Source: Lingula anatina (taxonomy: Eukaryota; Animalia; Brachiopoda). From it: a DNA stretch of 64,000 nt. The DNA is taken from positions 14,544,644 to 14,608,643 of the forward strand of contig CM120643.1 of assembly GCA_051362555.1 (NCBI GenBank), in the 5' to 3' direction. Of this stretch, positions 14,354 to 49,880 are shown piece after piece. The notes below the pieces were generated by a model that made no database searches, was not told the DNA's origin, and worked only from the letters and a program-made list of their open reading frames with translations. The translations under genes and the position numbers were made by a program. Every line of letters begins with the position of its first letter. Within the stretch, counting starts at the first letter, position 1.

Positions 14354-14518
14354 CAGGCCCGTAGTCAGGGGGCTCCTGGGGGGGGGGGGGTTCGAAAGAC
14401 CCCCCCCCCCCTTTTTTGCCAGGAAAAGGTCCCCTATGTACATGAAGGTTTCATGATAAAAGGTCCACTTTTTAAGAAAAAAAGAAACCCCCTTTTGAAA
14501 TTGCTGGCTACGGGCTTG
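14354..14518. mobile_element. hAT-like MITE with a 5-bp TSD
   Basis: TIR caggcccgtagtcag / ctggctacgggcttg; GTCTC duplicated at 14349-14353 and 14519-14523. Related degenerate ends (ccccttt..gaaattgctg..ctg) at ~31226-31264 and ~38456-38639. Confidence 0.8.
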
Positions 14519-16580
14519 GTCTCTTTTGGTTATCGGTTGAAACAAACGACATTGTTCTTCGGGTGCGGGAAGGAGAAAAAGTTGAATGTCACTGGGTAAG
14601 TCGGGAAGCTCCAGGAACTTCCTTGTTCTGGTGACAGAAAGGGGGGGGGGGTAAAAGTCAACAGTCTTTGTGGGAAATATCATTTCATGTCTTTCTAACA
14701 TCTATTTATCCGACAATCACGAAGTACATTAATTTGAAATGTGCTCATCTCCATTGCAAGATTGATTACCTGATACAGTTATCTGGACATAATTTTTCGA
14801 TGTTTCCAGCGATATCCTATTTTGCCTACTTATTGCTTATTCAAGGTGAATTTTCACATTCATTTTAATTAAGTGGGACCTAATTGAGGTACGTTGATTA
14901 ATGTGGGACATACGCCGACAAAGAAATGCAAATGTGCTGCATTTCATTTATTAAAGAATCTATTCTACATTTTTATGATATCTAAAATTGTGAAAGTTTA
15001 AATTTTTTGTTCATATAAAGGTATAACACTGTCAAGACGAATTCATCACTTTTAGTGAACCTTTTACGCCAATTACCAAAAGAAAGAAAATAAAGGAGTT
15101 TACAAAGAGTGGGTTTTAAGTTCAAATTGAATCGAGATAAGATGTACTGAAACAGGCGCGATGTTTAGACGTTGGAGATTTTATTAACGATATCAGCTGT
15201 TGTAACTTTGGAACAAAGAAAAACAACTTTTGTCTCAGACAATCTAAATTATCACGTGAAATCACTACAGACCAACATAAAAATTAATACCACATAATCG
15301 TCAACCCGCGAAATATGCAGTGGAACAAAATATCTATTAAAATTACAAATTAGCTTGAACATATATAGATAAATCAAAGAGAAATTCCACCGATCAAACG
15401 AGTTCTGGTTTTAAAAGTTATAAATAAAATGCGGCTTGTTACGGGCAGACAGATATGTATCTTTTTTACCCCCGAGGCCACGAAAGTGTGCGTCATTTTG
15501 TATACCTTCCTTCGAGGAGACTAGACCGTAGCCGCCGCGGTGGGGTTTTACATTAAAAGGTGGTATTTTCGATTACAACCCGATTTTTGTATAGATAAAA
15601 ATATGCATCTCTTCTGATTTCTTTTTGATAATGATGACTACTATGCACTGATGATAAGGCTGATACTTTTTGTTATTCGAGAGTAATAAGAATTTTGTGG
15701 TCCAAACGTTTTTATATGTGTGATGACTGGTATGTACGTAAAATATAATAGAAATAAGATGAAATAATTTTTCAACCACTGCCTTTACACGGCTGAAGAC
15801 GGCACTCGTTATTTTATGACAATAACCGAAAAATAAGATCCATCAGTATCACAACAAAACATTTTACACACACACACACACACACACGAAAAAAAATGTA
15901 TAAGAATAAAGCACCATACAAATACAATGTACAAGGGTATTTTAATTCCTTCCCCCAGAATGTAACGAAAGTAAATCACAAAATGTAAAATCCAGTTTGC
16001 GTACTTCGCTTCACTGGATATTCGTTTACCTCGGCAACCAAGGAATGGTGATATTCCTCTAATTATATAAACTTAAGGATATGGACAAAAGAGGTCGCCA
16101 CTACCAAGAGTAGTCTTCCTTGTAATCTATGTTATATATTCTGATCTTATATGTACATGTGCGTTCACACGCACGAGGAAATGGGAGGTTTCGTAATCTC
16201 AGTATAAGATATAAGACCGTTTATACATATGCCGATGTATATATGATGCAGACATTACTTGGGAAGCATTGAAAGAAAATTCATTTTATAAAGAAAACGA
16301 TACTGGGTATTATGTTTTTTTTAGCGTTTTTCAAATTTAATATATTTAAACTTAATTCTTTTTAAAACATGAGATATTCTCGTTCTTGTTATTAACTACG
16401 TAAAACAATAACGTTGTCTATTTAATTTGTCGCTTTAAATAGAATAAAAAGCATAATTTAAAAAAGTAGAAACTAGGCAACTATAATAACTGTTCACCCT
16501 ATTACCTATATATTTACATTATTTCTTACATTTTTTATTTCTCTTTCAGTACAAAAAAAGAAAACAAAGATTTTAAAAAG

Positions 16581-17086
16581 ATGAAACCGAGAACCATCAT
16601 GTTTTCCGCCAAAGAACTGACAATACTGTTGGTATTATGCCACTGTCCAAGACTCATTTTAAGCACACTGGACACAGGGACATCTCTTTATAGTGGACTT
16701 GGCAGCTCTAGCCTATATGCTAGCCCTTACAGCACAAGCGCTTATCAAAGCCCATACGGAAGCGCGAGCAGTTCTTTATTCGGGAGCTCTTTGGGAGGAC
16801 AGTATGGCGGACTGAACAGCCCGTATTCATCATACGGCGGTGGTTACTCCAGTCCCTATTCCTCCAGCCGATACGGTTCATCAAGCAATGCGTACGCTAG
16901 TCCGTATTCCAGCTCGTACAGCAGCCCGTATTCAAGTTCTGGTTATGGCGGATATGGATCGAGCACGTCGTACGGATCTCCCTATGGCGGCTACAACAAT
17001 GGATATGGCAGCGGATACGGCAGTGGATATGGCAGCGGATACGGTGGATATAATACTCCGAGCTTCGGCGTCAGTAACAGAGAAAG
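16581..17086 (+). CDS. Coding exon 1 of the Cys-repeat gene: signal peptide plus S/G/Y low-complexity domain
   Basis: [28 protein letters not shown] (hydrophobic core), then 7 SPY motifs and GYGS repeats; canonical splice sites on both sides. Confidence 0.85.
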
Positions 17087-17149
17087 GTAAATTGAGACCT
17101 GATATGTTTATTTCTTATATTCTTTCTCTCTCTCTTTTTATTTTTTAAA

Positions 17150-17188
<39 letters not shown>

Positions 17189-20100
17189 TTGAGAAAGAGA
17201 GAGAGAGGCTGGTTAAATAAATCGGACTAAGGTTTCCCATACATCTTTGCACTTCGGTTTTCGAAATAAATCGGAATACCATACTTGTACTCTAACATTA
17301 AAACTACGGCTAAGAAAAACTACTAAAGTTTTGATAAAAAATGTTAAGACGGGGGAACTTGGCACTCAGCACGAAGGGGTTGAAGCAGGGGCCTGGTCTG
17401 GCAGTGGAGAAATGATACGTTTGTTAGCTCTAAGCGCCTAATATGGCAGCTGGGCTGTATCCTCCCCAGGGAGGTGAGAGCGACTATAGAGTGCAACAGG
17501 GCCAAAAATGACCAGGATTCTCTGACTTAAATAAATTTCATTAAAAAAATAAATAAATAAAATAAATAAATAAAAAGTATATAAATATATTTTTCGGGTT
17601 GCAATATTTCAATAAAGATTATTATTATATCATAACGGACAGGCGTTTTAATCTGGGACAAAAGTATGTACATGTAGTGTACATTCAGAGGGACAAATGG
17701 AGTATTTAGTTTAATGGCAAATATGCAATATTTTGATAACAGATAAAAAGAGAAGTACACATACACAAGATAAACTGAGTTCGAAAAGATGATGTATTTT
17801 CTAATCGATATTTTTATGTAAAAAACGCGTGCATATTTTTTCTTCAGAATAGTTCATATAAAATAGTAAGTTTGTCTAGAAAACGGAAGTATATTAAATT
17901 TTCATCCACCTTTCAGATGCGGCTATCTCCTCATCAGCACCAGTACCCAGGGATGCTGTGAGAACGTTCCCTACGTCCTGAGCCAGGCTGAATGTTGTAC
18001 AGGCCAAATCCTCCCCCGTGGTCAGTGTCTCGCCGCTCAGGTGGTCTGCGGGGGCATGCTGTACGACCCCCAGTTTAAAGAGTGCTGCGGGAACACCACG
18101 GTGGACATCGGTCTTTGCTGCAGCGGCGCACCCTGCGGTATCTGTAGCGGAGTCAGATTCGACACCACCAGGCGTGAATGTTGCCAAGGTCGACTGGTCG
18201 AGTTCGGCTATTGCTGTGACGGATTCCCTTGTTCGTACTGCGGTAACATTAAGTACAATCCGAACCGAGAAGAGTGCTGCGGCAATCAGCTCGTCCCGAT
18301 AGGTTTTTGCTGCGGCGGAAGACCTTGCTCTATTTGCGGCTCCTATCCATACCAGCCCAACGAACAGGAATGCTGCGGTGATACTACTCCTGTTGAGAAA
18401 GGTTACTGCTGTAATGGCGTAGAGTGCGCCCTCTGTGGTAGAACCAAGTACGACCCAAGGGCCGGGGAGTGCTGCGGGGGTCAGGTAGCTGACAAAGGCA
18501 TGTGCTGCGACGGGTACCCGTGTGGTATTTGCGCCGGACAGAAATTTTTCCCTCAGAATGACGAATGCTGTGGAGCTGCCCTCGTCCCGGTTGGCATGTG
18601 TTGTGACGGTTACCCCTGCGAAGTCTGCGGTGGTTTCAAGTACAACCCACGCGTGCAAGAATGCTGTAACGGCAAACTTGTTCAGCTCGGTATGTGCTGC
18701 GACGGAATCGAATGTTTCGAGTGTGGCCTCGATAAATATAACCCTACTCTTCAGGAGTGCTGCTCTGGTATCATCGTCGAAAAGGGCTTCTGCTGTGACG
18801 GAAAACCTTGCTCCAGCTGCGGGCCACTAATGCTTCAGTACAACCCAGATTCGCAAGAGTGCTGCAATGGTACAGTTGTGACCAATCTCGGGTTCTGCTG
18901 TGACGATCGTCCGTGCCAGGCCTGTGGGTTTGGTCTTTTCAATCCTTTCACCCATGAATGCTGTGGAAACAAGGTCGTGAGAAAAGGCATGTGCTGTGAA
19001 GGAGAGGTTCCCTGCAGACTTTGTAACGATCTCAAATACAGTTACCTCGTGCAAGAGTGCTGCGGCCTTGACCTAGTTAATAAAGGTGACTGTTGCCGTG
19101 GAGTTACATGCGAAGTGTGCGGTATTTATAAATTCAACCCTGTAGAGCAAGAATGCTGTGGCGGGCAAGTTGTAGACAGAGGCGGATGCTGTGACGGAAT
19201 TCCATGTCAAATGTGCGGGCTGGATAAGTACAACCCGAACATCCAAGAATGTTGCGGTGGAACTCTGGTCGAGAGTGGCTTCTGCTGTAATGGAATCCCC
19301 TGCTCAAGCTGTGGTCCGACGAGTCTGCTGTATAACAGAAACACTCACACTTGCTGTGATAACCAGGTGGTCCTGCCTGACATGTGCTGCGATGGTATAC
19401 CATGTGGACTGTGCAGCTCCGCCAAGTACAATCCAGCCCAGCAAGAATGCTGTTCCAACCAACTCGTACCAAGAGGAATGTGCTGTGAAAACGTTCCCTG
19501 TGCATTGTGCGGACAGAATAAGTATCATCCCCAGCGACAGGAATGCTGTGGCCAGACACCAGTTGATCCAGGAATGTGCTGTGAGGGCGGCGTCCCTTGC
19601 GGTGTTTGCCTTAGTACCAAGTACAACCCCACCCGTCAAGAGTGCTGTAACAACAGGCTAGTGGAAGCCGGCTTCTGCTGTGATGGTGTCCCATGTGCCC
19701 TCTGTGGAGACTTCAAGTTTAACCCCAACACACAAGAATGCTGTGGTGGCCAAGTGGTTGAGACCGGGTTCTGCTGCGACGGATTCCCGTGTCAAATCTG
19801 TGGTGATGTCCGTTTCCATCCTCAGCGGCATGAATGCTGTGATTTTGCTCTTGTAGAAGTCGGCAACTGCTGCAATGGTTATCCATGTCAGATTTGCGAC
19901 ACCAAGAAATTTAACCCAAGAGAATTTGATTGCTGCAACGGCCTGATTGTGGGTGCTGGAATGTGCTGTGAGGGGATCCCCTGCTCCCTCTGTGGGGTCA
20001 ACAAATACCACCCACAGAAACAAGAATGTTGCGGAGGAGTTATCCCTGTCCTTCCCGGCATGTGCTGTAATGGCAGGGAGTGTCAAATGTGTAGTGGACT

Positions 20101-23100
20101 GAAGATCGATCCAAGACTTCATGAATGCTGTAATAACCAGGTCGTAGACGCAGGCATGTGCTGTGGTAATGCGTTGTGTGGACTGTGTGGAAGAGAAAAG
20201 TATAACCCTAACCTTCAAGAATGCTGCGGAGGCTCTGTGGTTGAGAAGGGTTACTGCTGCGGTGGAAAACCGTGCGGTATATGTAACGATGCTCTGTTTG
20301 ATGTCGTGACTGAAGAATGCTGTGGAGGTGCTGTAGTCAAGCAGGGAATGTGCTGTAATGGACAGCCTTGCAAACAGTGTGGCTATGGTTTATTCAACCC
20401 CACAACCCATGAATGCTGTGGTACCATGAAAGTAGTGAGAACTGGCATGTGTTGCGATGGTCAACCCTGTGGCCTCTGCGGCTCATACAAGTATAACCCA
20501 CAAGCCCAGGAGTGCTGTGGAGACCGTCTAGTAGAGAGAGGATACTGTTGCAATGGCTATGTCTGCTCGACATGCGGCGTTTACAAATACAATGCAGTGG
20601 ACCAAGAATGCTGTGGCCAAAACCTGGTGGTTGATAAAGGCATGTGCTGTGATGGCAATGCTTGCTTGATGTGTGGTCTGGACAAATACAACCCTGCAGT
20701 CCAGGAATGCTGTGGTGGTGCCCTGATAGAGAAAGGCTATTGCTGTGAAGGAGTTCCATGTGGAATCTGTGTAGACTTGATGTTCAACCCACAAACCCAT
20801 GAATGCTGCGGTTCTAATATTGTAGAGAAGGGGATGTGCTGTGATGGGTTCCGCTGCTCCATGTGCGGCACCTTCAAGTATCACCCTAAAAAACAGGAGT
20901 GCTGCGACAACAAGCTGGTTCCTTTTGGTATGTGCTGTGATGGCTATCCATGCTCTCTGTGTGCCGAGAATAAGTATAATCCTCTTGCTCTCGAGTGTTG
21001 TGGATCTCAGCTAACCGGGCGTGGGATGTGCTGCAATGGGCTACCATGCCAGAGATGTGGCGGAATCAAATACCATCCTCTCAAGCAGGACTGTTGTGCA
21101 GGAGGTTTGGTCCCATATGGTATGTGCTGTGCGGACAAACTTTGCCAGTTTTGTGGGGAAGCCAAATACAACCCACTCGAACAAGACTGCTGTGGTGGCC
21201 AACTTGTCAGGAAAGGACTGTGCTGTGAGGGAGTGCCCTGCTCTGTCTGTGCTGAAAACCAGTTGTACAACCCAGCCAAATTTGACTGCTGTGATGGGCG
21301 TCTGGTGAACGCTGGCTTCTGCTGTCACGGCGTGCCTTGCCAGGTGTGTGGTGACAAGCTGTTTAATCCACAGGATCAAGAGTGCTGTGGCACAAGCCTT
21401 GTGACCCCAGGACTTTGTTGTGAGGGTACCCCATGTGAGAAATGTGGCGACCAGCTTTTTAGCCCAAAGAAGCAGGAGTGCTGTGCAAACTACCTCGTCC
21501 CACTGGGCATGTGCTGTGACAACTACCCCTGCTCATTATGTGGTCCAGAAGACACCAAGTATAACAGACACAAGAAAGAATGCTGTGGAGGAGAGGTGGT
21601 CCTATTTGGTGGATGCTGTGAGGGAGTGCCATGTGCAATGTGCAGAGATCTAAAATACAACCCACAAACCCATGGTTGCTGTAGCGGTCAGTTAGTTCAG
21701 TATGGTTTCTGCTGCAATGGAGTGCCCTGTGCCATGTGCTATGATGAAAAATTCAATCCACAGACCCATGAGTGCTGTGATAAAATAGTGACCGAGTCAG
21801 GCATGTGCTGCGATGGTCTTCCATGTGGTATATGTAACGGCATCAAGTATGACACAGCCAAGCAAGAGTGCTGTGGAGGCCAACTTGTTCGAAAAGGTTT
21901 TTGCTGTGATAACGCCCCATGCCAGATGTGTGGAGACCAGAAATTCAGCCCTGTCAAGCAAGAATGCTGTGCCTTTAATCTTGTACCAGTTGGCATGTGC
22001 TGCGATGGTTATCCATGCGACATCTGCGTCAATGAAAAGTACAATCCACACAAGAGTGAATGTTGTGGTAATGAGCTTGTTGCCTATGGTATGTGCTGCA
22101 GCGGCTTGCCTTGCGCCATGTGTAAAGAGCAGAGGTTCGATCCAAGAGAAAAGGAATGCTGTGGTGACGTCCTTGTAGAGCCAGGCACCTGCTGTGAGGG
22201 TGTACCATGTGGTCTTTGTAACAACAGAGTGTATCATCCACTTAAACAAGAATGCTGTGGCAGCACTATTGTAAATAAAGGCTTCTGCTGTGAGGGATTT
22301 GTCTGTGGATACTGTGGTGATTACAAATTCAACCCTAACACATACGAATGCTGCGGTAACTCTGTGGTCAAGAAAGGTTTTTGCTGTGATGGCGTTGAAT
22401 GCCAAATCTGCAGTGGTAAAAAATACCATCCACAGAAGCAAGAATGTTGTGGTGGCACTCTGGTGGAATTTGGCATGTGTTGTGGTGGTGTCTTGTGCCA
22501 GACTTGCGGTGAATTTAAATACAACCCTATCAACTATGAATGCTGTTATGGCCGACCAGTTGAAAAAGGTTTCTGCTGTGAGGGTTCACTTTGCGTTGAC
22601 TGTGGTGGGTTTAAATTCAACCCTTACTTTGAAGAGTGCTGCGAAGGTAACCCAATGAGAATCGGTTTCTGTTGCGGTGGAAACAAGTGCCCGACGTGCG
22701 GAAACCAGCCTTTCGATCCAACACGTCACGAGTGCTGTGGGCGCAGAGTCGTTGGACTTGGTCTGTGCTGCGGTGGCGTAGAATGTGTACAGTGTGGCAA
22801 CAACAAGTATAACCCAGTGAGTCAGGAATGCTGTGGGGGTGCTGTCACGGAGAAAGGCAACTGCTGCAATGGAGCACCATGTCAGATTTGCCGAAACGTG
22901 AAATACAACCCCTTGGTGAATGAATGCTGCGCTGGTAATCTTGTCCCAGCAGGTGACTGTTGCAATGGAAGCCCATGCTCAACCTGTGGTATCTCAAGAT
23001 TCGACCCTACTGTCTCCGAATGTTGTGCCGGCACAGTGGTAGATATAGGCATGTGTTGCAACGGCGTGGTATGCGGTGTGTGCAGTGATGTGAAATTCAA

Positions 23101-24352
23101 CCCCACCGTTCAAGAATGCTGTGGCACATCTTTGGTGCTGCCAGGCAGCTGCTGTGGCGGAGTCGAATGCGGGATATGTGGCTTCTACAAATTCAACCCA
23201 GTTCTGGAAGAGTGTTGTGACAACAGGAGAGTGACACCTAAAGGCCTGTGCTGTGGTGGCTTTGAATGTGGTCTTTGCGGTGGTGTGGCCTATCCACCTC
23301 AGTCGCAAGAATGCTGCTCTGGCCAAATCGTTGATCTAGGTTTCTGCTGTAATGGCGCACCATGCATCCTGTCTTCTAGCGGATCAGTGATTGGAGAAAC
23401 TGGCACACCTGGTGGCAACTCCATAGCAACTGAAGCTTCCTGTTTGGGCGTGGCTTATGACAGTGGGACCCAAGAGTGCTGCAATGGCCAGGTGGTTCCA
23501 GCCGGTCAGTGCGTCCTGACCCCTCCAGTTCAACCAAACACGGGCAACCAGATCCTACAGAAGTGCGGTGGAGCCAGCTACGATCCTTCTGTGAATGAGT
23601 GCTGTGCTGAGGTCTTGGTAGAGAGAGGCATGTGTTGCGATGGTTGGCCGTGCCGACTCTGTGGCACCGTCAAATACAACCCAACTGTTACCGAGTGTTG
23701 TGGTGATCTTTTGGTGGACGTTGGTCAGTGTTGTAATGGCCAGGCATGCCAAATAGTCCAAGTTGAACGATGCGGTGCTGACACATTCGATCCGACTTCT
23801 CAAGAGTGTTGTGGTGGTAGGGTCGTTCCAATGAACTTCTGCTGCGATGGTGCAATCTGCGACACATGCGGAGGACAGAAATACAGTCCCGTGACCCGTG
23901 AATGCTGCGGAACCACCATTGTTGAGAAGGGCTTCTGCTGTAGTGGGAACATACCATGTAAGCAGTGTGGCTCCCAGCTGTATGGCCAAGGAAAAGGCTG
24001 CTGCGCTGGTGTAATCTTTGACCTAGCCTCGCAGCTCTGCTGTGGAAATGAAGTCACAGACTCCGATACCCATTACTGCTGTGATGGCAAAGTCTGTCAC
24101 AACGATGGTGACACCCCACCATCTGGCGGCAGAGATCCAACCACCTGTGGTACTTACAACATCAATGTTGCCGTGGAAGGTTGCTGTGGTGATAAACCAT
24201 ACTATAAACGTGATCAAGTCTGCTGTAACAATAACATCCGGTCCAGGTCGACCTGGGAATGCTGCCAGCACCCGTCTGGGTACCAGGTTCCTTTGCCAAT
24301 GGCAAGTGGCGGCTGCAAGTCGTTAAATTTCCCTGTGGTCCAGCCAGCATGA
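16581..24352 (+). CDS. Giant secreted Cys-rich tandem-repeat protein (galaxin-like di-cysteine repeats) with an N-terminal Ser/Gly/Tyr-rich domain; 2 coding exons, ~2313 aa
   Basis: Coding exon 16581-17086 (acceptor tttcag before 16550, donor AG|gtaaat) splices in phase 2 to 17917-24352 (acceptor ctttcag). The junction reads NRER-CGYLL and runs into the 2103-aa ORF without a stop. 506+6436=6942 nt. Repeat consensus CxxCGxxK(Y/F)NPxxQECCGGxxVxxGxCCxGxP. Confidence 0.88.
17376..17520 (+). mobile_element. SINE body fragment in the intron of the Cys-repeat gene
   Basis: GC-rich island containing atggcagctgggctgtatcctccccagggag, recalled as a conserved central SINE-domain motif of marine invertebrates (unverified). 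Confidence 0.45.
17917..24352 (+). CDS. Coding exon 2 of the Cys-repeat gene: ~60 galaxin-like Cys-rich repeats
   Basis: 6.4-kb stop-free frame, ~96-nt periodicity, 6 Cys per unit; TGA at 24350-24352. Confidence 0.93.
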
Positions 24353-24579
24353 TCAACAGTGGTGAAAGGTGGGTGTGGCTGTTTTTAATATGGTTATTTC
24401 AGAAAATTTGGAAATTATATTTGAAGCATGATTTAATTATTCTTTTTTGTATTAGGATACATAATGTTTCTGCAAGTTATTTTCGCAAAGAAATATCACT
24501 TTATTAAAAAAAAACTCCTAAAATTCCTTTTTTTCCTATTTTATGATTTACTCTTATGATTGTTTTTTTCTCTCCTCAG

Positions 24580-25985: not shown

Positions 25986-26968
25986 GGCTTTGAAATCAAG
26001 ATTAATTGGTTTTCAACCTAAATGTTAAACTACTGCATTACATAGATCACTGAGCATTTATGCTTAACCCACTCACATGGCAGTGATTAAAATTCCAAAT
26101 ACTTTCTGGGCAATATCAACATGGACATCTGGTCAACACGCAAGAACAACTTGTTACAATATAGACATACTACACATCCCAAACAGGAGGCAGTATTTTT
26201 GACTGAACACATAAACATAAGACATTTTAAAAATAGCAACAAATCATATTGACAAAAAAGTTTGACTGAATACAAGCAAAATTAGTTCTTTTTTCTGAGT
26301 AAAATATTCTGAGCAAATCTATTACAACAGCAACACTAAAGAGACAGTGCCAATTTTTTTTTCAGTGATCACTAATCTAAAACAAAACAAAACAAAAAAC
26401 AATAACAACACAAATATTGCATCAAACTGAATGATCTGTGCCCAACCTTCTACTTCATACCCAAATGCATAGTATTAATGCCCTAAATGGATAAACATTT
26501 CTTATATACTACATTTCTCAAGTAGTTTAAGACATGCTACTAAATACTGAACCCCAACCTTTGCTAAATAACTGTGATTTTACCAGAAGTTTACCAAGAA
26601 TTCATGCTGCAGTAACTGTTATGGCCAGTAACTGTTATGGTCATAAGGCTAATTTAAGAAATTCAACTTTTAGCATATTTACGTACAGTCTGCCTCATCT
26701 GTTAGATTGTCAGGTTTTGAGTTACAAAGACAAAACCAATAAAATACATTATTGTGTAAAAAATATATCAAATATATATGCCTGACAGCAATATATCTTT
26801 ACTTTTGTCTGGTGCACTATCTTGGATAGTTTTAGCCATGATTAAACACAAAGACACACACACACACATGTGCATAAATGTATATATTTAGAACCAATAT
26901 CAAATCAACATGACCAATCGGTCATACATTGCGAGCTATGTTATCATCTTTTATGTGAAACTCACTCC

Positions 26969-46042
<19,074 letters not shown>

Positions 46043-49039: not shown

Positions 49040-49880
49040 GAAAAACTAATAATTATTATTCTCAAACTGGAGCAGACTTTAGCCGGTCATGTGAATATAC
49101 ATATATACTTCAGAGTAGAGTTAATGTCAACTTTGATAAAAGGATATTAAAAGGCCCACAGGTGCGTTTTTTGTGTGTCACAATTGCATGGGTGGTGCCA
49201 TATTGCAATGATAGCCCATATTAAGAGTTAAAAAAATAATAATTATCATTCTCAGACTGGAGCTGACTGGAGCCGGTAATGTGTAAATATATATATACTT
49301 TCGAGCAGTGTTAATGTCAACTTTGATAAAAGGATATTTAAAGAATCACAGTTGCGTTTTTGTGTGTAACAATTGCATGTGTGGTCTCATATTGCTATGT
49401 TAGCCCATATTGAGAGTCAAAAAAATAATAATTATCATTTTCAGACCAGAGCTGACTGTAGCCGGTAATGTGTAAATATGTATATACTTTAGAGCAGTGT
49501 TAATGTCAACTTTGATAAAAGGATATTAAAAGGATCACAGGTGCGTTTTTGTGAGTCATAATTGCATGTGTTGTGCCATATTGCAATGATAGCCCATATT
49601 GAGAGTTATAAAAATAATAATTATCATTCTCAGACCGGAGCTGACTGTAGCCGGTAATGTGTAAATATGTATATACTTCAGAGCAGTGTTAATGTCAACT
49701 TTGATAAAAGGATATTAAAAGGATCACAGGTGCGTTTTTGTGTGTCACAATTGCATGTGTGGTGCCATGTTGCAACGAGAGCCCATATTAAGAGTTAAAA
49801 ATATTAATTATCATTCCATAATTCGGGCTCACTTAAGCAAGTAACATAAACCTATACATATAGTACACAGCGGTGTTGAT
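49040..49880. repeat. ~189-bp satellite, 4 full copies plus a partial copy, inside the transposon
   Basis: Anchor aattat(c/t)att at 49051, 49241, 49430, 49619, 49806; shared ttaatgtcaactttgataaaaggatatt. Confidence 0.93.

What the first reader, a model, noticed from the sequence alone, without database searches (positions are those of the whole stretch)
16581..24352. Giant secreted S/G/Y plus ~60x six-cysteine repeat protein: candidate new extracellular matrix, biomineral or adhesive scaffold
Seen: two separately listed ORFs join in phase into one ~2313-aa protein. It has a signal peptide, ~130 aa of Ser/Gly/Tyr low complexity, about 55 uninterrupted 32-aa units (CxxCGxxK[YF]NPxxQECCGGxxVxxGxCCxGxP), and a few more units separated by Pro/Thr/Gly linkers. 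Cys is roughly one residue in six, and there is no TM segment or catalytic domain. Known: coral galaxins are skeletal-matrix proteins of a few hundred aa with ~30-aa di-cysteine repeats, and related repeats occur in usherin and in annelid and squid galaxin-like proteins. Inference: this protein is several-fold longer, has two CC pairs plus a CxxC per unit, and is fused to a Gly/Tyr domain. I do not recognise this architecture. It could form a long disulfide-stapled rod in shell, tube, cuticle, egg coat or glue.
Basis: partly seen in the sequence, partly recalled or inferred. Interest (0 to 1): 0.85.

Follow-up and report, generated by a model that had tools for sequence, protein, structure and literature searches.

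The report
Giant galaxin-repeat protein of Lingula
The lamp shell Lingula carries an intact gene for a protein of about 2,300 residues built from some 59 copies of a six-cysteine unit behind a serine/glycine/tyrosine-rich head; it is an unusually long variant of the known galaxin-repeat family and is likely a secreted, disulfide-stiffened thread in the animal's chitinous or adhesive outer materials.

Summary
A GT-AG join of 16581-17086 to 17917-24352 gives a 2313-aa frame with 16.5% Cys: an S/G/Y head, 55 contiguous units of about 32 aa, and four more after a linker. The host is the brachiopod Lingula anatina: the neighbouring fucose kinase matches its protein. The repeat is not a new family. 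It passes Pfam Galaxin_repeat (122 bits, cut-off 28) and is predicted to fold as chained beta-hairpins, as published for galaxins. New are the strict six-Cys spacing (0 of 135 fetched relatives), 127 CC pairs (at most 64 in them) and the Tyr-rich head; no orthologue appeared among 1.84 billion representatives. Units are old and diverged, and 9 of 12 listed read variants are silent. Not shown: the splice junction (coverage too thin in 8 runs), secretion, tissue. Best reading: a structural scaffold in chitin-based matrix (chaetae, periostracum, pedicle cuticle); adhesive is the main rival, since galaxin-like proteins up to 231 kDa occur in mussel byssal footprint. The scan had no sequence look-alike, only analogous Cys-repeat proteins in bacteria and a fungus.

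The parts
16581..17086 (+). First coding exon (506 nt): putative signal peptide plus S/G/Y head. A strong acceptor at 16549 suggests an unlocated upstream non-coding exon.
   Evidence: acceptor 16549 scores 11.2 bits, best of 33 AG in 16000-16700
16581..16664 (+). Putative signal peptide, res 1-28 (hydrophobic core about res 13-28; contains two Cys, a His, Pro and Arg, so imperfect)
   Evidence: hydropathy; no dedicated predictor available
16671..17084 (+). Ser/Gly/Tyr low-complexity head, res 31-168 (44 S, 30 G, 25 Y, 8 P, 2 acidic residues)
   Evidence: no Pfam or NCBIfam hit; Atlas look-alikes score 0.75-0.80, leads only
17087..17916 (+). Predicted 830-nt phase-2 GT-AG intron; holds a dispersed, heavily transcribed repeat at about 17358-17520
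   Evidence: repeat from partial read piles
17917..24352 (+). Second coding exon (6436 nt), res 169-2313 and stop; carries the whole Cys array
   Evidence: Pfam PF24748 E 2.1e-35
17917..18043 (+). Degenerate N-terminal cap of the array, res 169-211
18044..23362 (+). 55 contiguous units of 32-35 aa, res 212-1984; C-x2-C-x11-CC-x9-CC-x4; predicted three beta-hairpins per unit
   Evidence: model
23363..23557 (+). Ser/Gly/Thr/Pro linker with one partial unit, res 1985-2049
23558..23947 (+). Four further full units, res 2050-2179
   Evidence: 34-43 bits each
23948..24352 (+). Degenerate di-Cys C-terminal region, res 2180-2313, and stop; no TM segment
24369..24579 (+). Possible 3'-UTR intron beginning 16 nt after the stop codon (not seen in RNA)
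   Evidence: donor 8.2 bits, acceptor 10.7 bits

Best explanation
This gene encodes a giant galaxin-repeat protein that is likely secreted and likely serves as a long, disulfide-stiffened thread within the chitin-based organic materials of Lingula (chaetae, shell skin, larval shell or pedicle cuticle). Shown: the frame, the 59 six-Cys units, the family, the host species, selection on the frame. Predicted: each unit folds into three short beta-hairpins. Inferred from the published galaxin chain rule: the six Cys pair locally (C4-C16, C17-C27, C28-C1 of the next unit), so that about 175 hairpins form one unbroken, protease-resistant filament of roughly 245 kDa. Inferred from composition: the Tyr/Gly/Ser head is the assembly and cross-linking end, joined to neighbours or to chitin-bound proteins by tyrosinase, laccase or peroxidase chemistry. 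The protein would reinforce the matrix rather than nucleate apatite.
For: Family: PF24748, 122 bits against cut-off 28. Fold: AlphaFold2 on four units with a 12-row alignment of the protein's own units, pLDDT 94, pTM 0.66, strands at 2-4/7-9, 14-17/20-23, 27-28/31-32 of each unit, matching the hairpin chain described in PMC12419799. Real, constrained gene: units average 47% identity (max 75%), no higher-order period; codon identity at identical residues 0.46 against 0.43 at saturation, longest exact DNA repeat 18 nt, so neither a recent expansion nor a collapsed assembly; 9 of 12 listed read differences in exon 2 are synonymous, P 0.004 against 33% expected. Host Lingula: 26 segments of a minus-strand fucose kinase match XP_013387059, most at 91-100%. 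Lingula shells, chaetae and pedicles are chitinous, and a 1988 paper title reports chitin plus 'keratin' in its setae (supplement of PMC4595640; title only). Its shell proteome lists Gly/Tyr keratin-associated-like proteins, a tyrosinase-like protein, laccase and peroxidasin. Galaxin-like genes are expressed in body wall of Riftia and epidermis of Ciona, and are proposed to be ancestral structural ECM proteins (PMC2726143).
Against: No tissue, protein or junction evidence. About 0-29 reads on exon 2 per run, none in 3 of 8 runs; in the two stranded runs with reads, one points sense and one antisense, so some reads may be read-through from the convergent fucose kinase gene. The variant count rests on few reads, and 54 rows were not shown. 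The motif ECCG, present in 29 of 94 detectable tryptic peptides, has 0 occurrences in the supplements of both Lingula shell-proteome papers; this is weak because the 2026 search lists RefSeq accessions and the protein was not found in the public collection. The single-sequence model was poor (pLDDT 47), and the good model used an alignment of its own repeats. Disulfide pairing could not be read from the model. The signal peptide is imperfect.
Confidence: 0.5

Rival explanations
1. It is a component of an adhesive or mucus secretion (pedicle tip, burrow lining or larval attachment), working like the large galaxin-like proteins of mussel byssal footprint.
For: Three galaxin-like proteins, two of 149 and 231 kDa, are enriched in the quagga mussel footprint (PMC12993968 table; dataset rows). 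Low abundance in bulk RNA fits a small gland. A Tyr-rich head fits DOPA-type adhesion (own knowledge).
Against: The mussel sequences were not in the supplements I could read, and no protein of that size with this unit appeared. The array is acidic (net -49 over 53 units), unlike most DOPA adhesives (own knowledge).
Confidence: 0.2
2. It is a true shell-mineral matrix protein that templates or shapes apatite, as galaxins, calcarins and cysrichin are linked to carbonate skeletons.
For: Galaxins and calcarins are in coral and sponge skeletons; cysrichin knock-down disturbs mussel shell crystals (PMC10045328). Acidic pI 4.9; 44 serines could be phosphorylated.
Against: No galaxin term or ECCG motif in either Lingula shell-proteome supplement (database caveat above). 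No acidic domain. Galaxin itself did not bind calcium (as cited in PMC2726143).
Confidence: 0.12
3. The two exons are not one gene or the product is not secreted: exon 1 alone gives a 169-aa Gly/Tyr protein, and exon 2 is joined to another leader or binds metal through CxxC and CC motifs.
For: Unspliced exon 1 ends at a stop after 169 aa, the size of the 132-167 aa keratin-associated-like proteins in the Lingula shell. No junction read. Stronger acceptors lie nearby.
Against: A strong donor sits exactly at the end of the exon 1 frame, and of the three best acceptors only 17916 keeps the frame open. Exon 2 has no signal peptide of its own. No metal-finger fold match (best Z 2.5). Described animal galaxin-repeat proteins carry signal peptides.
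Confidence: 0.1
4. It is an immune or microbe-managing protein whose repeats are cut into antimicrobial peptides, like squid EsGal1/2.
For: Squid galaxin repeats inhibit bacteria (PMC12773714). Diverged repeats could give varied peptides.
Against: Squid galaxins are cationic (+5 to +21.5) with at most 7 repeats; these units are neutral to acidic, show no regular dibasic cleavage site in the position table and are predicted to be cross-linked in series.
Confidence: 0.06

Closest known systems
Galaxin, galaxin-like proteins and calcarins (Pfam PF24748 Galaxin_repeat)
   Same: Tandem about 30-aa di-Cys repeats, above Pfam cut-off; predicted chain of short beta-hairpins; acidic pI near 4.5-4.9; no catalytic or TM domain.
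   Different: Coral galaxins are 338-660 aa with 13-19 di-Cys; calcarins have 10-23. This has 127 di-Cys, a strict C-x2-C + CC + CC unit absent from 135 fetched relatives, and an S/G/Y head instead of an acidic domain.
Large 'Fibrillin/Galaxin' footprint proteins of Dreissena bugensis (comp56544; homologues in Mya and Mercenaria)
   Same: Galaxin-like, similar size class (149 and 231 kDa), lophotrochozoan, extracellular material.
   Different: Sequences not available to me; unit spacing and head domain not compared. No such protein surfaced in my searches.
Long uncharacterised galaxin-repeat proteins of echinoderms, hemichordates and cnidarians (P0005-P0007, P0020, P0135; 872-1302 aa)
   Same: Long di-Cys arrays, PF24748 on P0005-P0007, 24-28% identity for those three.
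   Different: Irregular CC-CC spacing, at most 64 CC pairs, 0 exact units, no Tyr-rich head.
Mammalian hair keratin-associated proteins (high-sulfur and high-Gly/Tyr classes); from own knowledge
   Same: Both compositional types, Cys-rich and Gly/Tyr-rich, occur here in one chain.
   Different: Analogy only: those are small intracellular proteins with no homology shown; no Pfam keratin-associated hit.

Membership tests
Galaxin_repeat (PF24748) | Score above Pfam gathering threshold | tested here: met
   122 bits against 28, E 2.1e-35, 7 stretches
Galaxin-like proteins | Tandem repeats of about 30 aa with evenly spaced di-cysteines | tested here: met
   32-35 aa units, two CC each, 9-14 residues apart; definition from passages
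Galaxin-like proteins | Chain of short beta-hairpins starting at di-cysteines | tested here: met
   predicted only: model, three hairpins per unit
Galaxin-like proteins | Hairpins linked in series by disulfides | not testable with these tools
Galaxin-like proteins | N-terminal signal peptide | tested here: inconclusive
   hydrophobic stretch res 13-28; depends on the unobserved splice
Galaxin sensu stricto (coral orthologues) | About 340 aa, only two di-Cys and no CxxC per repeat, scleractinian coral | tested here: not met
   2313 aa, six Cys per unit, brachiopod host
Lingula shell matrix proteins | Peptides in the shell proteome | tested here: inconclusive
   ECCG and galaxin absent from both supplements, but the gene model may be missing from the searched databases
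Usherin-like multidomain proteins | Laminin EGF and fibronectin III domains around a short di-Cys region | tested here: not met
   PF24748 is the only Pfam family at E up to 1
Known solved fold | Structural match in PDB | tested here: inconclusive
   no Foldseek match at E 0.001; best VIA Z 2.5, rmsd 3.6, 44 aligned

The most novel reading that the evidence does not exclude
This is the unidentified sulfur-rich 'keratin' of Lingula chaetae: one 245-kDa chain that joins a disulfide-locked hairpin filament to a Gly/Tyr cross-linking head, a convergent counterpart of both classes of hair keratin-associated proteins, and the first named structural protein of a brachiopod bristle.
Probability: 0.15. 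Interest if true: 0.72.

Novelty: new variant of a known kind. Interest (0 to 1): 0.42.

Why it matters
It adds a brachiopod member, apparently missing from public protein collections, to a family whose function is still unsettled, and with 59 regular units it is the most regular long example among those I could compare. That makes it a good substrate for the first solved structure of the galaxin hairpin chain (none matched in PDB). It gives a concrete candidate for the protein phase of Lingula chaetae, cuticle or adhesive, testable by re-searching existing spectra and by in situ hybridisation. It does not by itself reveal a new class of system.

Tried and rejected
No whole genome is held, so paralogues outside the window were not searched; none lies in the other six-frame sequence of the window. 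PDB sequence search gave only Ras chains at E 0.3-0.8, taken as chance. NCBIfam none. Rfam none. Fold searches in PDB, the wide PDB set and viral models gave no significant match; weak rows were mostly viral fibre shafts. Atlas: galaxin-repeat clusters at 0.82-0.84, leads only. XP_023933310 (2362 aa, shell proteome) looked like a candidate by size but its peptides and TSP1 domain belong to another protein. Exact look-up of three partial gene models found none in the collection. Assembly artefact or recent tandem expansion rejected. Nesting inside the fucose kinase gene rejected: its last coding segment ends at 26972. Literature: 'Lingula'+'galaxin' 2 papers and 'brachiopod'+'galaxin' 5 papers (4 listed), all on corals by title; no galaxin mention in the text or supplements searched of three Lingula genome or proteome papers (main text of PMC4595640 was not searched for the term directly, but it was not listed); tubeworm tube paper has no galaxin. 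No complex prediction was run.
Full report
Observation. The window holds an open frame of 2160 codons at 17870-24352 and a shorter one ending at 17090. Joining ATG 16581 through a GT donor at 17087 to an AG acceptor ending at 17916 gives 2313 residues without a stop, 16.5% Cys. Between consecutive CxxC motifs there are 53 units, all 53 with six Cys, 42 of them exactly 32 aa. In those 42, the six Cys and Gly25 are invariant. A profile of them finds 59 full units, 55 contiguous and four after a Ser/Gly/Thr/Pro linker, with degenerate di-Cys caps at both ends. Residues 31-168 are 72% Ser, Gly and Tyr. There is no TM segment, the pI is 4.9 and the mass about 245 kDa.

Is the gene real? The longest frame in 200 shuffles was 188 codons. 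Tandem Repeats Finder reports nothing in the exon; units average 47% identity with no higher-order period; synonymous positions are close to saturation (0.46 observed, 0.43 expected) and the longest exact DNA repeat is 18 nt. The array is therefore old and is not an assembly artefact. Of the 12 read differences listed in exon 2, 9 are synonymous (P 0.004 against the 33% expected for transitions); these rest on few reads and hid 54 further rows. Transcription is weakly supported: I laid 8 of 9 offered runs and estimate 0-29 reads on exon 2 per run, none in three. No joint was listed. In the two stranded runs with reads, X1 points sense and X2 antisense, the latter plausibly read-through from the convergent neighbour.

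The splice. With matrices built from 21 of 25 introns of the neighbouring gene (four could not be placed), the donor scores 8.5 bits, second of 61 GT sites, and the acceptor 7.2, third of 82 AG sites; true sites range 3.7-10.3 and -0.2-15.4. The two better acceptors lead to stops at residues 175 and 274, and the unspliced exon gives 169 aa. The join is the best open reading but remains a prediction, as does the signal peptide.

Host. A minus-strand L-fucose kinase spans 26972-46042. One exon is 100% identical to the Lingula anatina protein, the next best hit being 68%, and 26 segments cover XP_013387059. The host is this phosphate-shelled brachiopod, whose shell, chaetae and pedicle are chitinous (supplement passages of PMC4595640).

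Family and relatives. Exon 2 passes Pfam Galaxin_repeat at 122 bits against a cut-off of 28 and hits no other family. A profile of 12 four-unit blocks against 1.84 billion representatives gave 115 hits, the best at 145 bits, far below what an orthologue with dozens of units would score. Word-index searches gave 1 and 7 hits at 24-32% identity. Named hits come from sea urchins, a sea star, a sea cucumber, Nematostella, Stylophora, oyster, a copepod, Saccoglossus, fishes and a green alga (25 of the 115 hits looked up); the top scorers are unnamed metagenome proteins. Among 135 fetched proteins none has the exact six-Cys spacing (56 matches in this protein) and the most CC pairs is 64, against 127; a looser profile finds at most 6 full-length unit matches in any of them. 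Neither the protein itself nor three partial models were found in the collection, so it appears unannotated there; eukaryote coverage of these libraries is incomplete.

Structure. From one sequence the model was poor (pLDDT 47). With an alignment of the protein's own blocks, four units gave pLDDT 94 and pTM 0.66, with three short beta-hairpins per unit. No solved or viral fold matched. PMC12419799 (passages) describes galaxins and calcarins as hairpins starting at di-cysteines, the first Cys of each pair bonding to the second Cys of the preceding hairpin. Applying that rule gives C4-C16, C17-C27 and C28-C1 of the next unit, a continuous chain of local disulfides. I could not read the bonds from the model, so this is inference.

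How it most likely works. A secreted, single-chain filament of about 175 linked hairpins, resistant to unfolding, with a Tyr-rich head for assembly and oxidative cross-linking, laid into a chitin-protein material (0.5). The Lingula shell proteome lists small Gly/Tyr keratin-associated-like proteins, a tyrosinase-like protein, laccase and peroxidasin (PMC13425148 supplement), so the chemistry is present in the animal. A 1988 title on chitin and keratin in Lingula setae (seen only in a reference list) points to chaetae as one candidate site. The main rival is adhesive or mucus (0.2): galaxin-like proteins of 149 and 231 kDa are enriched in the quagga mussel footprint (PMC12993968 passages and dataset rows), which also shows that great size is not unique. 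A direct mineral role (0.12) has family precedent but no support in two shell-proteome supplements, a weak negative given the database gap. A wrong gene model (0.1) and an antimicrobial role like squid galaxins (0.06; PMC12773714) are less likely.

What I read. Passages of PMC2726143, PMC12419799, PMC12773714, PMC4890752, PMC8476170, PMC11788577, PMC13121700, PMC4595640, PMC13425148 and PMC12993968; part 2 of 5 of PMC10045328; supplement searches for PMC4595640, PMC13425148 (also parts 1 and 22 of 132), PMC12993968 and PMC13121700. Tables held as pictures in those supplements could not be seen and may bear on the shell-proteome negative. Ten full-text searches listed no paper whose title or abstract start describes this gene. 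The keratin-associated protein analogy, DOPA chemistry and the MetaSINE name are recalled, not tested.

Verdict. A real and striking gene, a new variant of the galaxin-repeat family: new in unit design, length and head domain, not in kind. Interest 0.42; higher if it proves to be the chaetal matrix protein.

Noticed in passing
window 26972-46042, minus strand: L-fucose kinase gene, 26 matched segments, near-identical to Lingula anatina XP_013387059; convergent with the finding, about 2.6 kb between stop regions.
   Followed up: yes
window 17358-17520: Dispersed repeat in the intron with thousands of partial, one-strand RNA reads in runs X1-X3 and a constant loose 5' end; SINE-like (resembles a MetaSINE-type domain from memory); no Rfam match.
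   Followed up: partly
proteins P0001-P0004, P0010, P0014: Unnamed metagenome proteins of 484-1542 aa with galaxin-repeat arrays, some fused to non-repeat C-termini that look prokaryotic; they are among the best profile hits, suggesting the module occurs outside animals.
   Followed up: partly
proteins P0009, P0011, P0017, P0035: Unnamed, Arg/Lys-rich galaxin-repeat proteins that also combine CxxC with CC pairs, in a different spacing.
   Followed up: partly
window 49041-49816: Four copies of a 189-bp tandem unit, 89% matches.
   Followed up: no
window 14479-14519 and 26250-26970: A second dispersed repeat with partial read piles, and low read cover with several allelic differences downstream of the fucose kinase stop, probably its 3' UTR.
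   Followed up: no
window 24369-24579: Strong donor and acceptor just after the stop codon suggest a 3'-UTR intron.
   Followed up: partly
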